A stretch of 64,000 nt of DNA, taken from the IMG/VR virus record IMGVR_UViG_3300008259_000056. The stretch is one strand, 5' to 3'. The position numbers and the translations under genes were made by a program. This document shows, piece after piece, positions 16,993 to 50,622 of the stretch; positions within the stretch are counted from its first letter, which is position 1; each line of letters opens with the position of its first letter. The notes under the pieces are model-generated. The model saw only the letters and a program-made list of their open reading frames with translations. It did not search any database and had not been told where the DNA came from. The DNA is from an uncultured virus (IMG/VR IMGVR_UViG_3300008259_000056) (lineage: Duplodnaviria > Heunggongvirae > Uroviricota > Caudoviricetes).

Positions 16993-17232
16993 TTATACAC
17001 TTTCAGTAAACCATTCTGGACCTGATAAAATAGTAATCATTTCTGAGTTATTATACGGACCTTCCATATAACTTAAATCAATAAGAAATGTAGGGTCAGT
17101 TTCCGATTGCCATCTTATAAAAGTTTTAGTACCGTCAATACTAAATCCCAATTCAGAAATACTTCTTTCTAAAATTTGATTAAAATCAACTTTGCTAAGT
17201 TCTGATGTTAAAATAATTAAATACTTTCTCAT
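16993..17232 (-). CDS. Small hypothetical protein, last gene of minus-strand adhesin operon
   Basis: 79 aa; start overlaps stop of the 1741 aa gene. Confidence 0.6.
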   Translation of the reverse strand: MRKYLIILTSELSKVDFNQILERSISELGFSIDGTKTFIRWQSETDPTFLIDLSYMEGPYNNSEMITILSGPEWFTESV

Positions 17233-20200
17233 AAACCAAATCTATCTTTTTCTGAATTAAAATTATTGGTGACCTCAGTAGAGCTTAATTCTCTGTTATA
17301 TATTCTAATAATAGCGATATAACCTTGGAAATATTCTTGAGGCGAACCTGCTTGGAACCTACCAACCCGTAAACTAGAAACGTTTGTAACTGTCCCAAAA
17401 GGGTCCCCATTACTACCAACTGAAGTACCGTTAAGATATAAATTACCACCACTTGGGCCGTGTGTTGCAACAACGTGAGCCCATGTATTTGCGGTTAATA
17501 CTGTTGGTGATGATGTATAATTAATTGCCGAACCATCAGCAATAAAATTAATATTTCCCGATGTATTAATTCTCAATCTATAACCGTTATTACTATCTTT
17601 TGAAATTATATTAGGGCTATTAGTAAACCCTGTTGGTCTAATAAACGCCTCAACAGTACAACCCGTTGATAATTGTATTGATGCGTTATTACCATCTAAC
17701 CCATCATCACCAGCACCATCAAAAAGTAAACTACCATAAACTTGAGGTATATTTGGAAAATACGTAACACCCGAACTTAAGACGGTATCGTTATTATTTG
17801 TTGTTAAATCAAGTAAATTGGTACTCCCTGAATAAGAATTTTCATTACCCGCATCATACCATAAAACTAATCCTGACTGAGTTAGATTACAACTTGGACA
17901 ACACCCCACGGCTGTTACAGACCCAGCACCTGAACGGGATGGGGTAGTACTGGAACATACATATACAGGACTCTGAAAATTATTTATAATAATTGGTGAT
18001 GTTGCGGCCTCATCACAACAAGGGGTAAATGTAAATGTTGTATTCGCAGGAAATGAGTTTGACACCAATTCATACTGAAGACAACTACAAGTTGGTGTTG
18101 GTGTTGGTGTTCTTGTTGGAGTAACGGTTCTTGTAGGTGTATTTGTTGGTGTTCTTGTTGGAGTAAGAGTTCTTGTTGGTGTATTAGTAGGTGTTCTTGT
18201 TGGAGTAACGGTTCTTGTAGGTGTATTGGATGGTGTTCTTGTTGGAGTAACGGTTCTTGTAGGTGTGTTGGTAGGTGTGTTGGTAGGTGTATTTGTTGGT
18301 GTTACAGTATTAGTTGGGGTATTAGTTGAAGTTCTTGTAGGTGTATTTGTTGGTGTTCTTGTTGGAGTAACGGTTCTTGTAGGTGTATTTGTTGAGGTAT
18401 TGGTTGGTGTAACGGTTCTTGTAGGTGTATTTGTTGGTGTATTTGTTGAGGTATTGGTTGGTGTGTTAGTAGGTGTCCTTGTAGGTGTTACAGTATTAGT
18501 TGGGGTATTAGTTGAAGTTCTTGTAGGTGTGTTGGTTGGAGTATTTGTTGGAGTAACGGTTCTTGTAGGTGTATTTGTTGAGGTATTGGTTGGTGTAACG
18601 GTTCTTGTAGGTGTATTTGTTGAGGTATTGGTTGGTGTGTTAGTAGGTGTCCTTGTAGGTGTTACAGTATTAGTAGGTGTCCTTGTAGGTGTTGCAGTAT
18701 TAGTAGGTGTTTGAGTGTTACTTGGTGTTGGTGTAGGAGTTACATCATCAGTACAGATTATTAAAGTTGCGCTTGATAACGTACCAGCATCTACTACCGC
18801 AAAATCTTGGATATATAATGACCAAGTACCATTTGAATTTGGTGGTTGTATTCCGTCAAATACAGTAAACTCAGGTGAGTTACCAGGAGCCACCAAAGGA
18901 GGTACTGGACAAGGGGCACTAAACGTCATTGAGTTTTGTATTGTAGAGTTATTACCAAATGTACCTGAACTAAATCCATTCCAATCAGGCGTTGAGAAAG
19001 ACGTTAATGTAACTGTTACATTAGTTGCGGTTGTAACACCACCTATTCTACCCGCAATTAATGAATAAGTTGAATTATCAGGTGCAACTAAAACCATCCC
19101 AACGTCCCCAACCGCATTGTGAGAATAACCACTAAGTACAAATTTAACATCTGTAATTGGTGTAACTAAACCTGATACTGTAAAAGTTATAGGGTATACT
19201 GATGCGGTTGTATTATCGTTAATTATAATATTTGTCTGATTTGAAGGGAATGAAAAACAGAATTGTGAAGGGGTTTCAGTTAATGTAGGTGTGTTTGTAG
19301 GTGTTGATGTTCTTGTAGGTGTATTTGTAGGTGTTGATGTCCTTGTAGGTGTGTTTGTTGATGTCCTTGTAGGTGTTGATGTCCTTGTAGGTGTGTTTGT
19401 TATAGTGTTAGTAGGTGTTTGGGTAGGTGTTTGGGTAGGAGTTGGTGTATTAGTTGGTGTTCTTGTTGGCGTCACCGTATTGGTCGGGGTGTTAGTTGAG
19501 GTTCTTGTCGGAGTGTTAGTTGGTGTAGATGTTCTTGTAGGTGTATTAGTCGGAGTATTTGTATTAGTCGGAGTATTAGTCGGAGTATTAGTTGGTGTTG
19601 GTGTTGGAGTTGGTGTTGGACATATACCTCCAGAACAAAATCCACCTATAGTGAATTCTAATTTAGGACTACTAACAATAGGATTACTACCACAAACTCT
19701 AAATGAATCATTACCTGGATTTGTAACACCTGTAACGGTAACATTTGAACAATCAACATAACTATATGTGATAAAACCCTCTATTGTTGTATCTAAAAAG
19801 TCAATACAATTACATGGGTATTGAGTTGGTGTTGGTGTTACAGTATTAGTTGAAGTGTTAGTTGGTGTCTGAGTATTTGTTTGAGTTGGTGTCTGAGTAC
19901 TTGTTTGAGTTGGTGTTACAGTATTTGTAGGGGTATTAGTTGGTGTATTCGTTGCGGTTCTTGTAGGGGTATTAGTTGGTGTGGATGTTCTTGTAGGGGT
20001 ATTCGTTGAGGTATTCGTAGGAGTGTTAGTAGGAGTGTTAGTAGGAGTGTTAGTAGGAGTAACGGTATTTGTTGGTGTATTCGTTGCGGTATTTGTTGGT
20101 GTATTTGTTGAGGTGTTAGTAGGTGTAACAGTATTTGTTATCGTGTTTGTTGGCGTATTAGTTGGTGTATTTGTCGGTGTTATAGTGTTAGTAGGAGTAT

Positions 20201-22454
20201 TAGTTGAGGTATTCGTTGGAGTATTAGTAGGTGTAACAGTTCTTGTTGGTGTGTTAGTCGGAGTTTGAGTTGAAGTAATAGTTGGAGTTACGGTATTTGT
20301 AGGAGTGTTTGTTGGTGTCTGAGTTAATGTGTTCGTTGGTGTTAAAGTATTAGTCGGTGTATTGGTTGGAGTTTGTGTTATTGTACCTGTAGGTGTAATT
20401 GTGTTTGTAGGTGTGTTCGTAGGGGTTTGAGTAATAGTGTTGGTTGGTGTTAAAGTATTTGTAGGTGTATTTGTAGGGGTGATAGTAGATGTTACAGTAT
20501 TTGTAGGTGTATTGGTTGGTGTTTGAGTTGATGTATTAGTAGGTGTTATAGTGTTAGTAGGTGTAACAGTTCTTGTTGGAGTATTAGTAGGTGTGTTAGT
20601 CGGAGTTTGAGTGGAAGTATTAGTTGGCGTTACAGTATTCGTTGGAGTATTTGTAGGTGTGTTGGTCGGAGTTTGGGTTGAAGTGTTTGTTGGGGTTACA
20701 GTATTAGTTGGAGTATTCGTTGGTGTGTTAGTTGCAGTTCTTGTTGGTGTAACGGTATTCGTTGGAGTATTTGTTGATGTGTTCGTAGGTGTTTGAGTTG
20801 ATGTGTTTGTTGGGGTAATAGTATTTGTCGGCGTATTAGTTGGTGTATTTGTTGATGTGTTTGTAGGTGTATTTGTTGGAGTACCTGTGTTAGTGGACGT
20901 ATTAGTCGGAGTTTGTGTTGAAGTTATTGTCGGTGTAACAGTATTTGTAGGTGTATTTGTTGGAGTTTGAGTTGAAGTATTAGTTGGTGTGACAGTATTC
21001 GTAGGTGTATTAGTTGGTGTTTGAGTGGGGGTCTCAGTATTAGTTGGGGTTATCGTGTTAGTTGGCGTTTGAGTAGGTGTTTCAGTATTAGTTGGGGTTA
21101 TGGTATTAGTTGGCGTTTGAGTAGGTGTCTCTGTGTTTGTTGGTGTGATTGTGTTTGTCGGTGTGACTGTGTTAGTTGGTGTTTGAGTAGGTGTTTCAGT
21201 GTTAGTTGGAGTAATAGTGTTAGTTGGGGTAATAGTGTTAGTTGGTGTTATTGTGTTCGTAGGGGTGTTCGTGGGAGTTTCAGTGTTAGTTGGTGTTATT
21301 GTGTTCGTAGGGGTGTTCGTAGGGGTCTCAGTATTGGTTGGTGTTATTGTGTTCGTAGGGGTGTTCGTAGGGGTCTCAGTATTGGTTGGTGTTATTGTGT
21401 TAGTCGGCGTTTGAGTAGGGGTCTCAGTATTGGTTGGGGTTATCGTGTTAGTTGGGGTAGGTGTAGGAGTTTCAGTGTTAGTTGGTGTTATTGTATTTGT
21501 TGGGGTGTTCGTAGGGGTCTCAGTATTGGTTGGTGTTAATGTGTTCGTTGGAGTGTTCGTTGGAGTTTCAGTATTAGTTGGGGTAATGGTATTAGTTGGG
21601 GTATTAGTAGGTGTTTCAGTCGGAGTTGGGGTAATGGTATTAGTTGGCGTTTGAGTAGGTGTTTCAGTATTAGTTGGAGTTATTGTATTAGTTGGTGTAA
21701 TTGTGTTAGTCGGTGTTTGAGTAGGAGTCTCAGTATTAGTAGGTGTTAATGTATTCGTAGGTGTGTTCGTAGGGGTCTCAGTATTGGTTGGTGTTATTGT
21801 GTTAGTCGGTGTTTGAGTAGGAGTTTCAGTAGGTGTATTCGTCGGAGTTTCAGTAGGTGTGTTCGTTGGTGTTTCAGTAGGTGTATTTGTTGCAGTTTTT
21901 GTTGGTGTGTTCGTCGGAGTTTCAGTTGGTGTGTTAGTTGGTGTTTCAGTTGGAGTGTTAGTTGGCGTCTCAGTTGGAGTGTTAGTAGGGGTCTCAGTTG
22001 GTGTATTTGTTGCAGTTTTTGTTGGGGTGTTAGTAGGTGTTTCAGTTGGGGTGTTAGTAGGTGTTTCAGTTGGGGTGTTAGTAGGTGTTTCAGTTGGGGT
22101 GTTAGTAGGTGTTTCAGTTGGGTTAGTTGGAGTTTCAGTTGGGGTGTTAGTTGGTGTTGGAGTTGAAGTTGGAGTCGGTGTTGGAGTCGGTGTTGGAGTT
22201 GGGGTTGGGGTTGGGGTCGTAATTAGTGATATACAATAAACAATTTCAAATCGTTCACAACCATCATTTGTTATAATTTTAATACCAACTGCAGGTGCGC
22301 TATCAAATTGACTGGGTAATAAAAATGTTGTACTTGGAGGTACTAAAGTATTAATTGTTGCAATTAGAACACATTGATTACCAAATACGTCACAAACGTA
22401 AATCTGATATGGGTTTGGTAAACCTGATATGTTACTTATTTCAATTGAAGTCAT
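17229..22454 (-). CDS. Mucin-like Thr/Pro-repeat adhesin with P-domain and C-terminal LamG/ConA-like domain
   Basis: Three (x-T-x-T) tracts; [20 protein letters not shown] (proprotein-convertase P-like); [34 protein letters not shown] (LamG). Confidence 0.8.
18090..22220 (-). repeat. Degenerate coding tandem repeats (12-nt/4-aa unit, [12 protein letters not shown]) in three blocks: ~18090-18740, ~19270-19620, ~19825-22220
   Basis: Strongly G/T-skewed periodic sequence on + strand; third codon positions vary. Confidence 0.9.
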
Positions 22455-22505
22455 TATATTACATAAATATTTAATTCACTTTTTTATATCTGAATAAAAC
22501 TAAGT

Positions 22506-24593
22506 TTATGCGAGACACTTTTCACAGGATGCTGTAACGGATATAATCGGTGAACCTAAAATTATGTTAGGGTATGTAATTGAACAAAAACTAATTGAAC
22601 CTTCATCAAAAGTATATGGTGACGGTAATGATTCACCACAACATGGAGTATATTCAAATGTGATAGAATTGCCTTTTGTTGTATTAACAGTATAAGTATA
22701 ACACTCAGAAAAAGTTGTACAAACAGCACAACCACCTAAATTAGATAATCCTAAAGGACCAACATTTAAAATTATATTATTAACCCCGATTACTTGAGTT
22801 GTAATCCCAACATATGAAATACATTTAGTTAATCCGTCAACAGTTGAATAGAATACTTGATATTGTTCTAAAGTCCCTCCTGATGGGATAGTTACGTTAT
22901 TAGTGGTATAATACATTGTTCCATTGTAACAATCTTGAAATTGTTTACTCACAGGACAATTAATCATTTCATTAACCGTATTAAATGTTACATCACCAGA
23001 GTATTGACACGGCCTTTCAACAATACCCGAAGGTGTTGGTGTTATTGTAGGAGTCGGGCTTGGTGTTGGCGTAAACGATAAAATAGTTGCACCAACATTT
23101 ACACCTCCACAAACATTTGTTGGACTTGGTGTTGGGGTAGGTGTGGGTGTTGTTGTTTGAGTTGGGGTGGGGGTAGGGGTTGGCTCAAACTCGCAATTAA
23201 ATAACGATTCAAAATCAAAAGTATCACAAGGTGACGTTGTTGTAGTTGTGGTTGAACAAGTTCCTTCAGAAAAATATTCTGAAAGTAAATCAGGACAAAC
23301 ACTAACACAAGGTGATTTACCTGAAAGAAAGCAAGGACCGTCTAAAGACATCGCTAAACACCATTGAGTGTTACCTGTTGAATAATAAATAAATAAACCA
23401 TTAGATTCCCCAACCCAATAAGGTTTACCGTTATGTAAACCACTCTCAATGTAGTTATCATCATATGATATATTTTCCGTATTTGAAACACAATAACCTG
23501 ATGTGTTACATATATCACCACAACAATCACTTTCTTCAGAACAATTTTCTTCTTGTAAAACAAATTCACTTAAAACACTTTCACCTGAAACTATTATATC
23601 ATCTTGATAATAATAAAGTGTTGGTGACATTGGTGTTTCGCAGAATTCATATGAAACACAAGTTCCACTACATTCAGAATAAACATATCCTGAAGGACAA
23701 GTATAACCTGATGAATCGTAATTACCTAATGTGTCTTGAACTATAGTAAATTCTGTTTGGCCTGATGTTGTGAATATTATATAAGGTTCTAATGCCGCAT
23801 AAGTCGTTAAACCAGTTAATGTTGCTAAATCACCATCATAAATCTCACATCCAAAACCACCTTGACTACCAGCATTTAATCCGTAAACCTCCAAAGTATG
23901 GTCACCTGCACCAATCTCAACGGGGTATACGTTCCATCTTTTAAAGGATTGACCGTTACTCGTTGTGAAAGGATTAGGAGGTAAAGAAGTATCTACAATA
24001 AGATTACCATCTAAGACAAGTCTAAAATCATCATCAGCCCCAATTCCAACCCAGTATGTTTTTGTTTCAGTAATCCCTGATAAACAAGATGAAAATCCTA
24101 ACCATTTGTTGAATGGTGGTGCACTTCCACCTGTTGTTGGCCAAATGGCACATCTATTTAAAGGGCCTTCAGAAATAGTGTCACCAACATTTTCCCACGA
24201 ATCAACACCTGTAACTATAGTATATGTTGCACCTGAACCACATTGACAAAATCCTGGTTGGTAAAAATAACTACCAAATTGTGAATACACAAAAAATGAT
24301 GTGGCAACCGCCGATAATGGTGATACAGGAGGTGTTGCGGCTGTTGTAATTTCTCTGTAGCAAGATGTTTCGTCATAAACGACCCATCCGTCACCCGCAC
24401 AAATACTACAATCTGCGGAAGTTGTCATACAATAACAGTAATACCCTCTATCTGTAAATTCATTTACAACAGGGGTTGACTCACAATCTAAAAAACCATC
24501 AATAAAGACGGTATTATCGGTGTATAGGGTATTACCTGTTGATGAACTAATATCATTAGGGTCAATTCTGACTAATAAACAATTACAACTCAT
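22506..24593 (-). CDS. Cys-rich virion protein with PA14-like domain and Thr/Pro linkers
   Basis: GIGADDDFRLVLDGNLIVD...GDHTLEVYGLNAG resembles PA14; TTTTTT and PTPTP linkers. Confidence 0.6.
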   Translation of the reverse strand: MSCNCLLVRIDPNDISSSTGNTLYTDNTVFIDGFLDCESTPVVNEFTDRGYYCYCMTTSADCSICAGDGWVVYDETSCYREITTAATPPVSPLSAVATSFFVYSQFGSYFYQPGFCQCGSGATYTIVTGVDSWENVGDTISEGPLNRCAIWPTTGGSAPPFNKWLGFSSCLSGITETKTYWVGIGADDDFRLVLDGNLIVDTSLPPNPFTTSNGQSFKRWNVYPVEIGAGDHTLEVYGLNAGSQGGFGCEIYDGDLATLTGLTTYAALEPYIIFTTSGQTEFTIVQDTLGNYDSSGYTCPSGYVYSECSGTCVSYEFCETPMSPTLYYYQDDIIVSGESVLSEFVLQEENCSEESDCCGDICNTSGYCVSNTENISYDDNYIESGLHNGKPYWVGESNGLFIYYSTGNTQWCLAMSLDGPCFLSGKSPCVSVCPDLLSEYFSEGTCSTTTTTTSPCDTFDFESLFNCEFEPTPTPTPTQTTTPTPTPTPSPTNVCGGVNVGATILSFTPTPSPTPTITPTPSGIVERPCQYSGDVTFNTVNEMINCPVSKQFQDCYNGTMYYTTNNVTIPSGGTLEQYQVFYSTVDGLTKCISYVGITTQVIGVNNIILNVGPLGLSNLGGCAVCTTFSECYTYTVNTTKGNSITFEYTPCCGESLPSPYTFDEGSISFCSITYPNIILGSPIISVTASCEKCLA

Positions 24594-40839: not shown

Positions 40840-41428
40840 GGAATCCCTTCTCAGTCAGGATGTTATAGAGGTATTTCCTCTGATTAGTATCGTAATCTTT
40901 AATAAACATACAATCCATTCTTTTTAATTCCAAAAAATAAGATAACATTGAGTCAATAAATCTTGATGAATCATCATCATTTTTGAAGGTGAATAATTTA
41001 AATACATCATCATTTTGAACAATAATTTTGTTATTTAACTTGGAAACCATTTTAAGACCTGGCGAGTCTAAATATTTTTTAATAAATGTAGTGGTGTTTA
41101 TTTTTTTCTTAGTGTTATAATCAAGGAAAAATTCATCAATATTATATGGGTTTATTTTAGTTATAATGTGTTCATTTTCATCTAACTCAACTTTTATTTG
41201 CCTACCAATATTGTCTTTTATAAATAAAGAATTGATGTTATTAGATTTTGGCTCTAAAAGACCTAATTCATAATTGGATTCAAATCCGTTATCGTATTGT
41301 TTAGAAAATATAATATTCTCACTTTTATCTATTAGTGTTTTATAAAAATTTTCGGCACGTTTAAATGTTTTAAATTTCTTTATTATTTTCTTTTTTACTT
41401 TATTTTTAAACAGAACAATCATGTACAT
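40790..41428 (-). CDS. Hypothetical basic protein
   Basis: 212 aa ORF, divergent from dnaJ. Confidence 0.6.
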   Translation of the reverse strand: MYMIVLFKNKVKKKIIKKFKTFKRAENFYKTLIDKSENIIFSKQYDNGFESNYELGLLEPKSNNINSLFIKDNIGRQIKVELDENEHIITKINPYNIDEFFLDYNTKKKINTTTFIKKYLDSPGLKMVSKLNNKIIVQNDDVFKLFTFKNDDDSSRFIDSMLSYFLELKRMDCMFIKDYDTNQRKYLYNILTEKGFPKSYLFRQSTTHPTKR

Positions 41429-41462
41429 ACATAAAAAATTAATATAATAGAAAAAAAAGGAA

Positions 41463-42371
41463 ATGGAGAATTTTTACGAGACATTAGGAGTTAAAGAAAG
41501 TGCAACTCAAGATGAAATTAAAAAAGCTTATAGAAAATTGGCCGTTAAACATCATCCTGATAAAGGTGGGTCTGAAGATACCTTTAAGAAAATATCTGAA
41601 GCTTATGACACATTGGGTGATGAGAATAAAAGAAAACAATACGATAATCAAAAAAACAATCCATTTGGGGATATGGGTGGAGGATTTAACCCATTCTCAG
41701 ATATGTTTAATATGTTTAATCAAGGATTTAGAAGAGGGGCTCCCGATAAAATATTACATGTTAATGTTGGAGTAATTGAATCGTTCCTTGGGAAGGATAA
41801 AGAAATTACATATTCAAGAGAAGTAATGTGTAATACTTGTGAAGGGCGTGGAGGTGAAAAAACAAATTGTCCATCTTGTCAAGGGCAAGGTTTTTTTGAT
41901 GTTAAAGTTGGTGGTAGTATGTTTAGTCAGGTTGTTAGACAAACTTGTAATAATTGTAAAGGGTCTGGTCAAGTTTATACCAGTGTTTGTCACGGTTGTA
42001 ATGGTAAGACAACAAAAACTAAAATGGAAAATATTAAAATTAAATTGCCACACGGAATTGATGAGTCACAGTTTTTAAAAATGCAAGGTAACGGGGATTA
42101 CAGTAATGGTAGTTACGGTAATTTAGTTATGAAAATTAATATTATCCCTGAAGATAATTGGGAAAAATTAGGTAATGACCTTATATATAATAAATTTTAT
42201 AATTACGATGAATTAAACTCCGATTCAATTGAGATACCACATCCTAGCGGTCCTATATCATTAAATTTACCTAATGAGTTTAATACATCAATACCGTTGA
42301 GAGTTAAAGGTAAAGGATTTCACGGTGGAGATTTGTTTATAAAACAACACGTTAAGTTTGTTAAGAATTAG
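41463..42371 (+). CDS. dnaJ: DnaJ chaperone (J domain + zinc finger + C-terminal domain)
   Basis: HHPDKGG J domain, G/F region, four CxxCxG repeats, GNLVMKI. Confidence 0.92.
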
Positions 42372-42527
42372 TTATTTTAAATACCCGATAATATCTGAGA
42401 TAATCCTAACAATACCGTAAATCGCCATTATTGAAATAAAAGATGAAAATATAATTATTTTATAGTTTGAATTAACGTTAAGAGGTCCTTTCTGACATTC
42501 TTTACATTCTTTACTTGATGTGTTCAT
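42372..42527 (-). CDS. 51-aa CxxC + TM protein (not in ORF track)
   Basis: MNTSSKECKECQKGP...IIIFSSFISIMAIYGIVRII. Confidence 0.55.
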   Translation of the reverse strand: MNTSSKECKECQKGPLNVNSNYKIIIFSSFISIMAIYGIVRIISDIIGYLK

Positions 42528-42579
42528 AATTAGATTAATTTGTAATAAACAATTATATTACCAATTCTTTTATAAGTAA

Positions 42580-42733
42580 ATAAATTAACCCCACTGAACC
42601 AATGGGGTTTAACTAATTGTTTCACTTATTAAGTTGGGGTAATCAACCCGTATCACCTCACCCGATACTTGATGGTCAGATTGTAAGTTAGGAGTTCTGA
42701 CATCCTGTTGTGTGTCCTCAATCACATCAACAA
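42580..42733 (-). ncRNA. Candidate structured small RNA
   Basis: Four consecutive hairpins plus terminator hairpin, directly downstream of a TAAATTTG promoter box. Confidence 0.5.
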
Positions 42734-42735
42734 TA

Positions 42736-42766
42736 CAAATTTAAGCCTTTGTTTGATATATACAAT
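42736..42766 (-). promoter_or_regulatory. Bacteroidota-type promoter driving the candidate RNA
   Basis: Minus strand TTG (42765-42763), 19-nt spacer, TAAATTTG (42743-42736). Confidence 0.6.
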
Positions 42767-42843
42767 AGGTATAATGATTTTTTTAAAAGTTTTTTTTGGT
42801 TATTGACTTTTTAACGCACTTTACTTATATTTATAATAAAGAG

Positions 42844-43011
42844 ATGAGTATGGAAACTAAAATGGGGAGACCTAAAAAAGAAGATAAAGATAAAAAAGTT
42901 AAGTATGGAATTAGTATTGACCGATATCTTTTTGATAAAATGAAGAACGAGGGGGTAAGTATCTCCAAATTTATCCAGAATTTAGTTAAAGAACATTATG
43001 AAAAAATATAA
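42844..43011 (+). CDS. Ribbon-helix-helix-like small DNA-binding protein
   Basis: GRPKK..KVKYGISIDRYLFDKM...SISKFIQNLV; overlaps endonuclease start. Confidence 0.6.
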   Translation: MSMETKMGRPKKEDKDKKVKYGISIDRYLFDKMKNEGVSISKFIQNLVKEHYEKI

Positions 43012-43609
43012 TTTTAATGAATATTTTTTTCACGAGGTGAATGAAAAATCCGCTTATTGGTTAGGGTTTTTATATGCCGATGGATATACTAGAATGAAAA
43101 ATGGTAAAAGTGGTGAAGTGAAACTAAAATTAAAAGATACTGATAGAAACCATATTGAATTATTTCTTAAAGATTTAGGGTGTGATAAACCTATAAAATG
43201 TGGGGTAGATAAGAAGTCTAAATTTTGTTCCGTAACAGTTTACTCAAACATAATGGTTAAACAATTATTTGAATTGGGGTGTGTTAATAATAAAACTCAA
43301 AAAATACGTTTACCTAAGTTAGATGAGGTATTCATGCCTCACTTTATAAGAGGTTATTTTGATGGTGACGGTAGTATTTCAAAAGTGAAAAATAGACCAA
43401 ATTCTTTTGTTGTAAGTTTGTGTTCTAATAAAGAATTTAACAATGAACTTGTAAAATTCTTAGGTTATGGAAAACCATACATATATGAAAACTATTCGGT
43501 TATTAAAATTAATAAAATAATGGATATTACTAATTTTAGGGATTATATTTACCCAAAGGCGATAACGTTCTTAGAAAGAAAATTACTAAAATTTAAACAA
43601 ATTAAATAA
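42998..43609 (+). CDS. Free-standing LAGLIDADG homing endonuclease
   Basis: AYWLGFLYADG and FIRGYFDGDGS motifs. Confidence 0.85.
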   Translation: MKKYNFNEYFFHEVNEKSAYWLGFLYADGYTRMKNGKSGEVKLKLKDTDRNHIELFLKDLGCDKPIKCGVDKKSKFCSVTVYSNIMVKQLFELGCVNNKTQKIRLPKLDEVFMPHFIRGYFDGDGSISKVKNRPNSFVVSLCSNKEFNNELVKFLGYGKPYIYENYSVIKINKIMDITNFRDYIYPKAITFLERKLLKFKQIK

Positions 43610-49668: not shown

Positions 49669-49700
49669 TAAAAACCCCACTTAAAAGGTGGGGTTTATTT
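49669..49700. terminator. Bidirectional terminator between convergent genes
   Basis: AAACCCCAC/GTGGGGTTT stem flanked by A- and T-tracts. Confidence 0.75.
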
Positions 49701-50515
49701 TACATAATAACTAACTCTTCTAACTTATCTCTTATAAGCCAAGGTTTAGGGGAAAACGGATTATCCAAGTCCTCAACTAAATCATAGGTTGACAGTAAAA
49801 ATTTAAAGTCGCTTAATTTAAAATCAAATACATCCAAAACTAATGACTTAACAACCTTGTCAGGATAATGTTTTGTCTCAGAAAATAATTCAATATCAAA
49901 ATCTTCTTCTTCATTTAGTTTAGTTGAAATCTTAAAGTCTATTTTATTTGATTTTATTACATTAAATAGATGATTACAGATGTATTCGGAGTAGTAGTAA
50001 TGTAATCTACCCATATTTAAACTATGACCGTATGGGAACTCAGATGTTACTGATAGAGGTGAGTAATTAAAATTAACTAAAGAAGGGGTTTTTGCTTCTG
50101 AATAGTCAACCTCAACTTGTAACCCATAGTTATCAGACGCTGACCATACATTAAGGTCGTTTGATTTTATAAACTCAATTAATCTTTTGGAGAATGACGG
50201 TCTTTCAGTATTGTAAAAAGTGAATGAATAGTCAGTCTTACTTTCAAGTTCTACATCATACATAATTAAGTCAATTACATTAATGTTTTCATAACCGAAT
50301 TTTGAAAGTAACTCTTTGTTTTGTTCGGTGAACTCCTCTTGGATTTTTGACATTTCTAAAATATCTTTACGATTTGTCATCCCATTAATAACAAAAAACT
50401 TTCCACAGTCAGTTACTTCAATAACCGAATCGTAATCAAGGGTTAATTTTTTTAAAATGTAATCGGCCATTTTATTAACAAGACCTCTGTTTGAATTTGG
50501 ATTGATATATCTCAT
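49700..50515 (-). CDS. Hypothetical protein with faint MetK-like N- and C-terminal patterns
   Basis: Start at MRYINP; VNKMADYIL..SVIEV...FVING; LVLDVFDF...KPWLIRDK. Confidence 0.5.
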   Translation of the reverse strand: MRYINPNSNRGLVNKMADYILKKLTLDYDSVIEVTDCGKFFVINGMTNRKDILEMSKIQEEFTEQNKELLSKFGYENINVIDLIMYDVELESKTDYSFTFYNTERPSFSKRLIEFIKSNDLNVWSASDNYGLQVEVDYSEAKTPSLVNFNYSPLSVTSEFPYGHSLNMGRLHYYYSEYICNHLFNVIKSNKIDFKISTKLNEEEDFDIELFSETKHYPDKVVKSLVLDVFDFKLSDFKFLLSTYDLVEDLDNPFSPKPWLIRDKLEELVIM

Positions 50516-50622
50516 AATGTTAAATTTATACCAATTAATAACTAAAATTATTAATACCTTAAATAGTAAAATGAAAAAGGAGGACATACAATATCCTCCT
50601 ATCCTTTCTAGAAAACCAAGAA

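What the first reader, a model, noticed from the sequence alone, without database searches (positions are those of the whole stretch)
42580..42766. Self-contained multi-hairpin small RNA with host-type promoter and terminator
Seen (plus coordinates): stems 42706-42714/42723-42732, 42675-42680/42696-42701 (GTCAGA/TCTGAC), 42650-42654/42664-42668 (GTATC/GATAC), 42637-42640/42646-42649, and terminator 42587-42593/42603-42609. The region is GC-richer than its flanks and starts just after a minus-strand TAAATTTG box. I do not recognise it as tRNA or a named RNA family. A 38-codon GTG ORF (42725-42609) overlaps it, so a peptide or dual function is possible. Inference: an early-expressed phage ncRNA, perhaps a decoy, anti-defence or regulatory RNA.
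Basis: partly seen in the sequence, partly recalled or inferred. Interest (0 to 1): 0.75.

Follow-up and report, generated by a model that had tools for sequence, protein, structure and literature searches.

The report
New modular small RNA of freshwater phages
This stretch is a real gene for a folded, non-coding small RNA, found only in a group of uncultured giant freshwater phages that probably infect Bacteroidota; it matches no described RNA family and its job is still unknown.

Summary

The RNA lies on the minus strand, about 42732 down to about 42580. It has a Bacteroidota-type promoter (TTG-N19-TAAATTTG), a 5' hairpin, one ~92-nt module of four hairpins (P1-P4) and an intrinsic terminator.

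The single-sequence fold is not significant (z -1.6). The support is comparative:
- 28 distinct modules came from about 30 phage or metagenome loci.
- 98% of cells are paired, 8 pairs change on both sides, and 0 of 500 shuffles reach this. Slid controls give 33-39% paired.
- G-U pairs favour the minus strand.
- Many relatives carry two tandem modules, of two different origins.

The ORF is not conserved (stops in 27 of 28 units). Rfam 15 and ARAGORN find nothing. There is one locus per phage record, and no convincing host copy.

One freshwater metatranscriptome holds a 202-nt contig that ends at the predicted transcription start and covers only the RNA.

Function is inferred. I favour a trans-acting early RNA that is recognised through its invariant P1 hairpin (loop ACUCCUA...). 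A cis leader or antitermination role, and a type III antitoxin-like role, are weaker rivals.

It is a new RNA family of a known kind.

The parts
42736..42765 (-). Promoter of Bacteroidota primary-sigma type: -33 TTG (42765-42763), 19-nt spacer, -7 box TAAATTTG (42743-42736)
   Evidence: Pattern match (6 matches in the window against 2.16 expected). Exact TAnnTTTG stands at a fixed distance in 15 of 20 distinct upstream regions of homologues, and the full TTG-N18-20-TAnnTTT[GA] in 12 of 20. The consensus is taken from passages of PMC2483708 and PMC7641319.
42707..42731 (-). 5' hairpin (GUUGAUGUG / CACACAAC) at the start of the transcript. The predicted start is about 42729-42732.
   Evidence: Fold. 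A different hairpin stands at the same place in L010-type loci, and none in L012, L016 and L052 types. The metatranscriptome contig ends at 42732.
42675..42701 (-). P1: invariant 6-bp stem (42701-42696 with 42680-42675) and a 15-nt loop ACUCCUAACUUACAA (42695-42681). This is the most conserved part of the module.
   Evidence: All 6 pairs are identical in 28 of 28 units, and the loop positions ACUCCUA and A.AA are invariant.
42671..42674 (-). CAUC segment. It pairs either with GAUG at 42704-42701 (extending P1) or with GGUG in the P2 loop at 42662-42659 (H-type pseudoknot). The invariant AA at 42670-42669 would be loop 1.
   Evidence: Pairing with the P2 loop is possible in 112 of 112 cells, with one-sided changes only. 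The P1 extension has 10 of 28 A-C mismatches at one pair. Neither pairing is proven.
42650..42668 (-). P2: 6-bp stem (42668-42663 with 42655-42650) and a 7-nt loop GGUGAGG
   Evidence: 4 of 6 pairs change on both sides, and 100% of cells are paired.
42637..42649 (-). P3: GGGU/ACCC hairpin
   Evidence: The first pair is GC:16, GU:7, AU:4, AC:1.
42619..42634 (-). P4: ACUU/AAGU hairpin (42634-42631 with 42627-42624), followed by the conserved UGAAA
   Evidence: 3 of 4 pairs change on both sides: CG/UA 18/10, UA/CG 18/9, UA/CG 17/5.
42577..42609 (-). Intrinsic terminator (10-bp stem, 3-nt loop) with an interrupted U-tract AAUUUAUUUA
   Evidence: minus strand only. Homologues have stronger terminators, such as CCCCC...GGGGGUUUUUU.
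42609..42725 (-). 38-codon GTG ORF overlapping the RNA. It is not a gene.
   Evidence: stops in 27 of 28 homologous units, and no codon-position pattern.
42372..42527 (-). Next gene on the same strand: a 51-aa CxxC and transmembrane protein, conserved beside dnaJ. It is a neighbour, not shown to be part of the RNA's function.
   Evidence: cluster c3 in 12 loci. No Pfam or PHROG match.

Best explanation
This is a free-standing gene for a roughly 150-nt structured non-coding RNA. It belongs to an uncultured freshwater giant phage (estimated about 290 kb) that most likely infects Bacteroidota.

The host's primary-sigma RNA polymerase starts at a TTG-N19-TAAATTTG promoter, so expression is probably early. 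Transcription stops at an intrinsic terminator.

The functional unit is a ~92-nt module of four hairpins, with a possible small pseudoknot. The module occurs once or twice in tandem in different relatives.

Stems P2-P4 are kept only as structure. The P1 hairpin and its 15-nt loop (ACUCCUA....A.AA) are kept letter for letter. I therefore infer that P1 is the surface read by a partner, and that the RNA acts in trans as a binder, decoy or regulator of a protein or RNA of the infected cell.

Shown: gene anatomy, strand, conserved structure, non-coding nature, restriction to one phage lineage, and presence in an RNA library. Inferred: early timing, trans action, and P1 as the recognition element. 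The partner is unknown.
For: Structure:
- 28 distinct units, 98.2% of cells paired, 8 pairs with changes on both sides, 0 of 500 shuffles as high, slid controls 33-39% paired.

Strand:
- In P2-P4, 15 cells are G-U on the minus reading. Only 2 cells (AC, CA) would be G-U on the plus reading.
- The promoter and the terminator U-tract also point to the minus strand.

Gene-like ends:
- A TAnnTTTG box at a fixed distance in 15 of 20 distinct upstream regions.
- G-rich stems with U-runs after the last unit in 20 of 26 loci by a simple pattern.

Stand-alone nature:
- The RNA sits in at least four different gene contexts.
- In L033, L040 and L051 the next gene is on the opposite strand.
- In 15 of 26 loci the next ORF starts 14-20 nt after the U-tract behind a TATTTAT motif. 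That motif is itself enriched before phage genes (11 of 66 against 1.8% background). So the neighbours may have their own promoter of another class.

Module behaviour:
- One locus per phage record in 5 of 5 records.
- The two kinds of second unit differ. L010b is 80% identical to its partner and 87% to the single unit of L012. L044b is 93% identical to its partner type and L043b 77% to L010b. L039 keeps only the b-type unit.

Expression:
- In run X19 (metatranscriptome) a 202-nt contig covers 42616-42732 with 0 differences, plus a second unit. It ends at the predicted start. The flanks 41400-42543 and 42752-43479 have no cover in that run.

Host type:
- 1 of 53 ORFs has AGGAG upstream.
- The promoter consensus and the TAAAA-type ribosome site are described for Bacteroidetes (PMC2483708 and PMC7641319, passages).
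Against: - The single-sequence fold is not better than shuffles (z -1.6).
- The units come from one phage lineage plus paralogous copies. Infernal's effective sequence number is 1.15, so cell counts overstate independent events.
- P1 never varies, so its stem has no covariation support.
- Expression rests on assembled contigs of 1 of 4 RNA-labelled runs laid. X18 and X20 show nothing on the RNA, and X16 is probably DNA. Contigs cannot show strand, ends or level.
- No partner was found.
  - Complementarity of the loop to dnaJ mRNA (TTAGGAGTT at 41484-41492) is not kept in relatives.
  - The frequently adjacent 158-aa protein c1 is an ORFan with no fold match.
- In 15 of 26 loci the RNA directly precedes same-strand ORFs, which also fits a cis role.
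Confidence: 0.55

Rival explanations
1. Cis-acting leader. The hairpin module modifies the transcribing polymerase (like HK022 put or lambda nut RNA), or works as a protein- or ligand-controlled attenuator. Either way it sets how much transcription passes the terminator into the genes behind it.
For: The layout is promoter, structured RNA, terminator, same-strand ORFs. In 15 of 26 loci the next ORF (112-163 aa) starts 14-20 nt after the U-tract. Conserved loops and a possible alternative pairing of 42671-42674 would suit a switch. The loop ACUCCUAAC faintly recalls boxA (recalled).
Against: - The downstream genes differ between loci (c0, c1, c3, an 89-aa protein, a 112-aa protein).
- In L033, L040 and L051 no same-strand gene follows.
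- In the window only a 51-aa gene follows before the convergent dnaJ.
- A TATTTAT motif enriched before phage genes lies between terminator and ORF, so read-through may not be needed.
- No known riboswitch or leader family matches.
- The rrn leaders of two Bacteroidia genomes carry GUUCUUUGAA-type boxA, which is unlike the loop.
Confidence: 0.2
2. Type III toxin-antitoxin-like or pseudo-antitoxin RNA. Tandem RNA repeats are followed by a terminator and a ~160-aa toxin (c1 or c0). Where the protein is missing, as in the window, the RNA would be a stand-alone antitoxin mimic that disarms a host abortive-infection toxin.
For: The layout of repeats, terminator and a ~158-166-aa ORF occurs in many loci. 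A pseudoknot is possible. Copy number is variable. The ToxIN architecture and the phage pseudo-ToxI escape are recalled, not read here.
Against: - The unit is 92 nt with 1-2 copies, against the 34-45-nt units recalled for ToxI, CptI and TenpI.
- c1, c0 and c19 have no Pfam match.
- The c1 model (pLDDT 76.5) has no Foldseek hit at E<=0.001. Its best VIA Z is 3.4, and ToxN, AbiQ and CptN do not appear among the rows.
- The RNA also occurs without c1 or c0 (window, L019, L036, L052). c1 was not found in G001, although that record is a fragment.
- No host array of the P1 sequence turned up in 185,579 species genomes at the stringency used.
Confidence: 0.07
3. A ligand-binding or self-cleaving RNA (an orphan riboswitch aptamer or a new ribozyme), present as one or two modules.
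For: Invariant nucleotides are concentrated in loops and junctions (ACUCCUA, GGUG, AA, GGGUU, UGAAA) around covarying stems. The fold may be compact and pseudoknotted. The arrangement is tandem.
Against: The genes downstream fall into no consistent class. No known family matches. The 202-nt RNA contig spans the unit junction uncut (weak evidence). Both strands of the P1 stem are invariant, which suggests sequence-specific recognition more than a pocket.
Confidence: 0.07
4. A small protein gene (the 38-aa ORF), or a DNA-level element (origin, iterons, packaging site) rather than an RNA.
For: An open GTG frame exists in the window. The unit is a direct DNA repeat in relatives.
Against: The frame is broken in 27 of 28 units, and there is no codon periodicity. 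Compensatory changes include 15 G-U cells on one strand only. A promoter and terminator flank it. It is present in an RNA library.
Confidence: 0.02

Closest known systems
Free-standing structured small RNAs of large lytic phages with their own promoter and terminator (for example the four ncRNAs annotated in Pseudomonas jumbo phage PA5oct, PMC7318152, abstract seen in a search listing; T4 RNAs C and D, recalled)
   Same: A short non-coding gene in a variable accessory region of a large phage genome. Discrete ends. Function unknown or only partly known.
   Different: No sequence or structure relation to any Rfam 15 family. Modular ~92-nt unit with copy number 1-2. Bacteroidota-type promoter. 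Known only from uncultured freshwater phages.
Type III antitoxin RNAs (ToxI, CptI, TenpI) and phage pseudo-ToxI (recalled, not read here)
   Same: Tandem RNA repeats behind one promoter, a terminator, then a ~160-aa ORF in many loci. A possible pseudoknot. Carried by a phage.
   Different: The unit is 92 nt rather than about 36-45 nt. Copy number is only 1-2. The downstream proteins show no likeness to ToxN-type toxins in the searches done. The RNA often stands without them.
HK022 put and lambda nut antitermination RNAs (recalled)
   Same: Hairpin RNA transcribed directly from a promoter, upstream of a terminator and further genes.
   Different: No model was available for comparison. Downstream genes are variable or absent. 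The second module is optional. Not tested.
P6 region of OLE RNA, an anti-Shine-Dalgarno mimic bound by ribosomal protein bS21 (PMC12054373, passages read)
   Same: A non-coding RNA that exposes a sequence resembling the 16S rRNA 3' tail. Here CUCCU lies within GAACUCCUAAC, against GGAACACCUCCUUUCU in a Bacteroidia 16S. bS21 biology is central in Bacteroidia and their phages (PMC9976891).
   Different: The match is imperfect: 5 of the 6 letters of CCUCCU, and a 3-nt gap relative to the 16S tail. The element sits in a hairpin loop, not in an SD-ASD-like duplex. No binding was tested. OLE is a ~600-nt RNA of Bacillota.
Bacteroidota primary-sigma promoter (-33 TTTG / -7 TAnnTTTG)
   Same: The window has TTG-N19-TAAATTTG. 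15 of 20 distinct homologous upstream regions have an exact TAnnTTTG. The consensus is quoted in PMC2483708 and PMC7641319.
   Different: The -33 element is TTG(T) rather than the full TTTG in most loci. 5 of 20 regions have only near matches such as TATATTTA.

Membership tests
Any Rfam 15 family (including phage pRNA, riboswitches, ribozymes, 6S, Bacteroidota motifs) | Match to the family covariance model at its gathering score | tested here: not met
   0 matches in the whole window. 0 matches in 18 related loci, 60 kb in all. With E<=10 on 42300-43000 there were only 7 weak, unrelated rows far below gathering scores.
tRNA / tmRNA | Cloverleaf or tmRNA detected by ARAGORN | tested here: not met
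   0 genes in the window and 0 in 20 related loci. The module has no closing acceptor stem.
Type III toxin-antitoxin (ToxIN/CptIN/TenpIN) | Array of short (about 34-45 nt, recalled) direct RNA repeats | tested here: not met
   The repeat period is 92 nt, with 1 or 2 copies.
Type III toxin-antitoxin (ToxIN/CptIN/TenpIN) | Terminator between the repeats and a downstream toxin gene | tested here: met
   A terminator is followed 14-20 nt later by a 112-163-aa ORF in 15 of 26 loci. This does not hold in the window itself.
Type III toxin-antitoxin (ToxIN/CptIN/TenpIN) | Downstream protein is a ToxN/AbiQ/CptN-type endoribonuclease | tested here: inconclusive
   No Pfam match for c1, c0 or c19. The c1 model has no Foldseek PDB hit at E<=0.001, and the best VIA Z is 3.4. 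A missing match does not exclude the fold.
Bacteroidota primary-sigma promoter | -7 TAnnTTTG with -33 TTTG/TTG about 19 nt upstream | tested here: met
   Window 42736-42765 on the minus strand. 15 of 20 regions have TAnnTTTG and 12 of 20 the full pattern.
CsrB/RsmZ-type protein sponges | Many GGA motifs presented in hairpin loops | tested here: not met
   There is one invariant RGGAUGU per unit, at the base of P1 and not in a loop. The P1, P2 and P4 loops lack GGA. The CsrA consensus is recalled.
RNA anti-CRISPR (solitary repeat mimics) or a mimic of a host small RNA | Near-identity to a host CRISPR repeat or host RNA | tested here: inconclusive
   The P1 pattern (19 fixed bases) found only 2 single, chance-like sites in 185,579 species genomes. 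A looser pattern hit 3 of 401 Bacteroidia-class genomes against 1 control hit. No arrays were found. The host is unknown and divergent mimicry is not excluded.
HK022 put / lambda nut antitermination RNA | Acts in cis on the transcribing polymerase to suppress downstream terminators | not testable with these tools
   Only the layout could be compared.
Small protein gene | Conserved open frame with a codon-position substitution pattern | tested here: not met
   Stops in 27 of 28 units. Variable columns by codon position: 17/32, 16/31, 11/32.

The most novel reading that the evidence does not exclude
The invariant P1 loop (GAACUCCUAAC) is a mimic of the 16S rRNA 3' tail and anti-Shine-Dalgarno region of the Bacteroidia host.

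In these bacteria the tail is buried by bS21, and essentially one gene keeps a strong Shine-Dalgarno sequence: rpsU, which encodes bS21. It uses that sequence to autoregulate (PMC9976891, PMC13000453).

The phage RNA would bind either the rpsU leader or bS21 itself. That would switch off the host's ability to replenish its own bS21 while a phage-encoded bS21 with no Shine-Dalgarno sequence takes over the ribosomes. Such a gene is present in the related record G004.

This would be the 'product that facilitates bS21 exchange' that the authors of PMC9976891 speculated about.
Probability: 0.08. Interest if true: 0.85.

Novelty: new member of a known kind. Interest (0 to 1): 0.6.

Why it matters
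Very little is known about small RNAs of phages that infect Bacteroidota, or about non-coding genes of uncultured giant phages.

This family has several useful properties:
- It has clean gene boundaries.
- Its structure is supported by covariation.
- It has a letter-perfect 27-nt hairpin that looks like a recognition site.
- It is modular, with one or two copies.
- It is present in many freshwater metagenomes. Fifteen DNA runs from ten studies hold at least 99% of the sampled words of the 3.1-kb stretch. Any of them may be the source sample.

It is therefore a well-defined candidate for pull-down and reporter experiments in a tractable host such as Flavobacterium johnsoniae.

If the recognition partner is part of the translation or defence machinery, it would show a new way in which phages reprogramme Bacteroidota. 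If not, it is still a new entry for RNA family databases, and an annotation fix, because the 38-aa ORF should not be called.

Tried and rejected
1. Known families. Rfam gave nothing at gathering scores on the window and on 18 loci, nor at permissive E-values on the locus. ARAGORN gave nothing.

2. Cultured-phage relatives. blastn of 489 nt and of the 95-nt unit against 50,697 phage records found no match even at E<=10.

3. dnaJ synteny. Of 5 DnaJ-relative loci, the two close ones carry the RNA: L002 is the same contig as L009, and L005 is the same contig as L019. The three at 50% identity (L003, L004, L006) gave no model hit.

4. Chance pattern hits. L011, L014 and L022 (read) and L025 are coding or unrelated, and were dropped before alignment.
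   - L054 (26 bits), L060 (17 bits) and L061 (14.5 bits) match P1 only and were left out of the alignment.

5. Target search inside the window. The 9-nt complement of the loop in dnaJ codons 7-10 is not conserved in 5 other distinct DnaJ starts. The other 10-12-mers are scattered or lie in a repeat-rich ORF.

6. boxA idea. The Bacteroidia rrn leaders read here (2 genomes) have GUUCUUUGAA, unlike the loop.

7. Partner protein c1.
   - 30 homologues were found, all from the same lineage and none with a Pfam domain.
   - The fold searches were uninformative.
   - c1 was not found in G001; that record is only about 25% of a genome.

8. Host copy. Genome-wide scans stayed at chance level.

9. RNA runs X18 and X20 showed no cover on the RNA. 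X16 is probably DNA.

10. Earlier-findings look-ups by place and by sequence returned nothing. The word look-up returned unrelated Bacteroidota promoter and small-RNA notes.

11. Literature. Searches (listings only) showed no paper describing this RNA. That is not proof that none exists.

12. Type VI-B CRISPR repeat likeness of the 5' hairpin (GUUG...CAAC) was considered from memory only. I dropped it because the hairpin differs or is absent in other lineages.

Full report
**What is there.** The window is AT-rich phage DNA. Its nearest held record (G001) is 73.8 kb, and CheckV rates it 25% complete.

Read on the minus strand, the order is:
- -33 TTG (42765-42763) and -7 TAAATTTG (42743-42736)
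- a 5' hairpin (42731-42707)
- a core of four hairpins, P1-P4 (42701-42624), ending in UGAAA
- an intrinsic terminator (42609-42587) with an interrupted U-tract

A 51-aa membrane-protein gene follows on the same strand (42527-42372). It runs into the convergent dnaJ gene (41463-42371, plus strand).

**Is it more than chance?** Not from this one sequence. The minimum free energy is only 1.6 sd better than shuffles on either strand. The case rests on relatives.

Exact and degenerate patterns from P1 found the element in 8 IMG/VR contigs. A metagenome scan gave 27 stretches, of which 26 carry a full unit. This count rests on model hits for 22 of them. For the four duplicates not submitted (L037, L041, L047, L059) it rests on sequence identity to scored loci. 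Chance hits (L011, L014, L022, L025) were read and dropped.

In all, 47 units collapse to 29 distinct sequences. Of these, 28 are full units and one (L054) matches P1 only.

On the alignment of the 28 (A1), my structure gives:
- 98.2% standard pairs over 672 cells
- 8 of 24 pairs with changes on both sides
- 0 of 500 shuffles reaching the observed pairing or covariation score
- 33-39% pairing when partners are slid by 1-3 columns (a first version)

RNAalifold independently found P1, a six-pair P2, P3 and P4.

By helix: P2 has 4 covarying pairs, P3 has one (GC 16, GU 7, AU 4, AC 1), and P4 has three. P1 never varies.

One caveat applies. The sequences are close relatives and paralogues (effective number 1.15), so cells are not independent events. 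The variety of pair types at eight positions is still hard to explain otherwise.

**Strand and coding.** In P2-P4, 15 cells are G-U on the minus reading, while only two would be G-U on the plus reading. The promoter and terminator agree with the minus strand.

The 38-aa ORF is not conserved. Its frame has stops in 27 of 28 units. Variable columns fall 17/32, 16/31 and 11/32 on codon positions 1-3. In two-unit relatives the second unit is read in another frame, because 92 is not a multiple of 3.

**Modularity.** Many relatives carry two tandem units exactly 92 nt apart.

The second units are of two kinds. L010b is 80% identical to its partner but 87% to the single unit of L012. L044b is 93% identical to the a-type unit, and L043b only 77% to L010b. 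L039 keeps only a b-type unit behind the same promoter and 5' hairpin.

The ~92-nt unit therefore behaves as a self-sufficient module whose copy number has changed more than once. In L033, L040 and L051 a different hairpin replaces the second unit.

**Promoter and host.** An exact TAnnTTTG stands at a fixed distance before 15 of 20 distinct upstream regions. The full TTG-N18-20-TAnnTTT[GA] stands before 12 of 20. The rest have near matches.

This is the -7/-33 consensus described for Bacteroides and Flavobacterium (passages in PMC2483708 and PMC7641319).

Only 1 of 53 ORFs of at least 100 aa in the window has AGGAG upstream. Leaders are A/T-rich, as in Bacteroidia. A Bacteroidota host is therefore likely, though inferred.

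Related records reach 224 kb at 76% estimated completeness, so the genome is about 290 kb. Record G003 encodes two sigma factors. This fits a switch from host-type early promoters to phage promoters.

**Stand-alone or leader?** The RNA occurs once per record in 5 of 5 phage records. It sits in at least four gene contexts:
- between dam/RHH and c3/dnaJ, as in the window
- after a NUDIX gene and before c0-c1-c6-c7
- before an opposite-strand gene
- between c0 paralogues and an 89-aa gene

In 15 of 26 loci a same-strand ORF starts 14-20 nt after the U-tract. That would fit a leader.

However, that gap always holds a TATTTAT motif. The motif lies within 45 nt upstream of 11 of 66 genes in the window, against 1.8% of random positions. 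The neighbours may therefore have their own promoter of another class. I regard the cis role as a live rival (0.2), not excluded.

**Expression.** Four RNA-labelled runs from four studies were laid.
- X19, a freshwater metatranscriptome, holds a 202-nt contig. It matches 42616-42732 without a difference and continues into a second unit. It ends at the predicted start, and the flanks have no cover in that run.
- X18 and X20 show nothing on the RNA.
- X16 is probably DNA.

Contigs cannot give strand, ends or level. This is a hint of a discrete, relatively abundant RNA, not proof.

**What it is not.**
- It matches no Rfam family and no tRNA or tmRNA.
- It has no relative in 50,697 deposited phage genomes.
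- A scan of 185,579 species genomes for the P1 pattern gave two single sites that match P1 only, one of them inside a coding region.
- A looser pattern hit 3 of 401 Bacteroidia-class genomes, against 1 control hit.
- So there is no evidence for a host gene or a CRISPR-like array that the RNA copies.

**Mechanism.** The stems of P2-P4 drift while keeping their pairing. In contrast, 27 nt of P1, including both stem strands and most of its 15-nt loop, are invariant. So are GGUG in the P2 loop, the AA between P1 and P2, GGUU in P3, and UGAAA.

The four bases after P1 (C-R-Y-Y) can always pair with the P2-loop GGUG (112 of 112 cells). Their pairing with the 5' GAUG fails in 10 of 28 units. This suggests a compact H-type pseudoknot, but with one-sided changes only.

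Such a pattern fits an RNA whose P1 is read sequence-specifically by a partner. I therefore favour a trans-acting binder or decoy.

I could not find the partner. The loop's complement in dnaJ mRNA is not conserved. The frequently adjacent protein c1 is a lineage-restricted ORFan with no informative fold match, which also leaves the type III toxin-antitoxin idea without support.

**Boldest reading.** The loop GAACUCCUAAC resembles the 16S 3' tail of Bacteroidia (GGAACACCUCCUUUCU) with three bases missing.

In Bacteroidia this tail is buried by bS21, and rpsU is essentially the only gene with a strong Shine-Dalgarno sequence (PMC9976891 passages; PMC13000453 abstract). bS21 binds an anti-Shine-Dalgarno mimic in OLE RNA (PMC12054373). 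The related phage record G004 encodes a 64-aa bS21 with no Shine-Dalgarno sequence.

The RNA might therefore interfere with host bS21 supply.

Against this reading: the likeness is imperfect, continuous pairing with a canonical rpsU leader would be only 5 bp, and nothing was tested. I give it about 8%.

**Verdict.** This is a real, new structured RNA family of a known general kind (phage small RNA). Its anatomy is confirmed, the peptide idea is rejected, and its function is open.

Noticed in passing
window, upstream of many genes (for example before 13056, 13944, 37320, 44537); also L007-L058 between the RNA terminator and the next ORF: A TATTTAT motif lies within 45 nt upstream of 11 of 66 gene starts, against 1.8% of random positions. 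It sits in the 14-20-nt gap before the start codon of the ORF after the RNA terminator in 15 loci. It may be a phage-specific promoter, possibly for the phage sigma factors, giving very short leaders.
   Followed up: partly
G004:C1:115424-115618 (L086 225-419, minus strand): A related phage record encodes a 64-aa ribosomal protein bS21 homologue (PF01165, 29.4 bits against a cut-off of 27) with no Shine-Dalgarno-like sequence upstream. It was not found in the other four (incomplete) records.
   Followed up: partly
G003 (L074-L079): The related 224-kb phage record encodes the following:
- two sigma-70-family factors
- a GAF-PAS histidine kinase next to a response-regulator receiver
- an RNA ligase, a HAD_SAK_2 'RNA repair' domain protein and a P-loop kinase
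- three adjacent C-5 cytosine methylases
- thymidylate synthase, FKBP and DnaJ

Only the first 149 of 226 ORFs were scanned.
   Followed up: partly
window 50587-50615, minus strand (gene 49700-50587): This is the only gene of 53 with a strong Shine-Dalgarno-like leader (GGATAGGAGGAT, 7 nt before ATG) in a phage whose genes otherwise lack such sites. The 295-aa product has no PHROG match.
   Followed up: no
window 17229-24593, minus strand: The 1741-aa and 695-aa ORFs contain many short periodic repeats (for example a 12-nt TAGGAGTGTTAG period on the plus strand at 20018-20060). This points to low-complexity Thr/Pro/Asn-rich repeat proteins. There is only a weak PHROG match (phrog_15511).
   Followed up: no
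L054 1948-2033, minus strand: A bacterial metagenome contig (M1-type peptidase, CbpA-like DnaJ, AsnC-type regulator) has, 75 nt after the dnaJ-like gene, a hairpin AUCAGA-ACUCCUAACCUAUAA-UCUGAU. Its loop is almost identical to P1 and its stem is extended by a compensatory A-U pair (model score 26 bits). It could be chance or a host-side relative.
   Followed up: partly
window 42998-43609, plus strand: An endonuclease gene (phrog_4645, E 1.5e-40) sits between the small RHH-like gene and dam. In L036, L052 and L056, dam lies directly next to the RNA promoter, so the endonuclease looks like a mobile insertion.
   Followed up: no
L010, L012, L016, L049 and others: A multi-copy family of about 150-200-aa proteins (cluster c0, 19 members in the loci, N-termini such as MKILITENKLDK or MNLKESIKRILKEE) flanks the RNA in several contexts. 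It has no Pfam match.
   Followed up: no
L033, L040, L051 (after the single unit): In these loci the second unit is replaced by another hairpin (GUUGAGG...CUCAAC). A long-stem terminator (GAAACGGAC...GUCCGUUUC) follows, shared with an opposite-strand gene.
   Followed up: no
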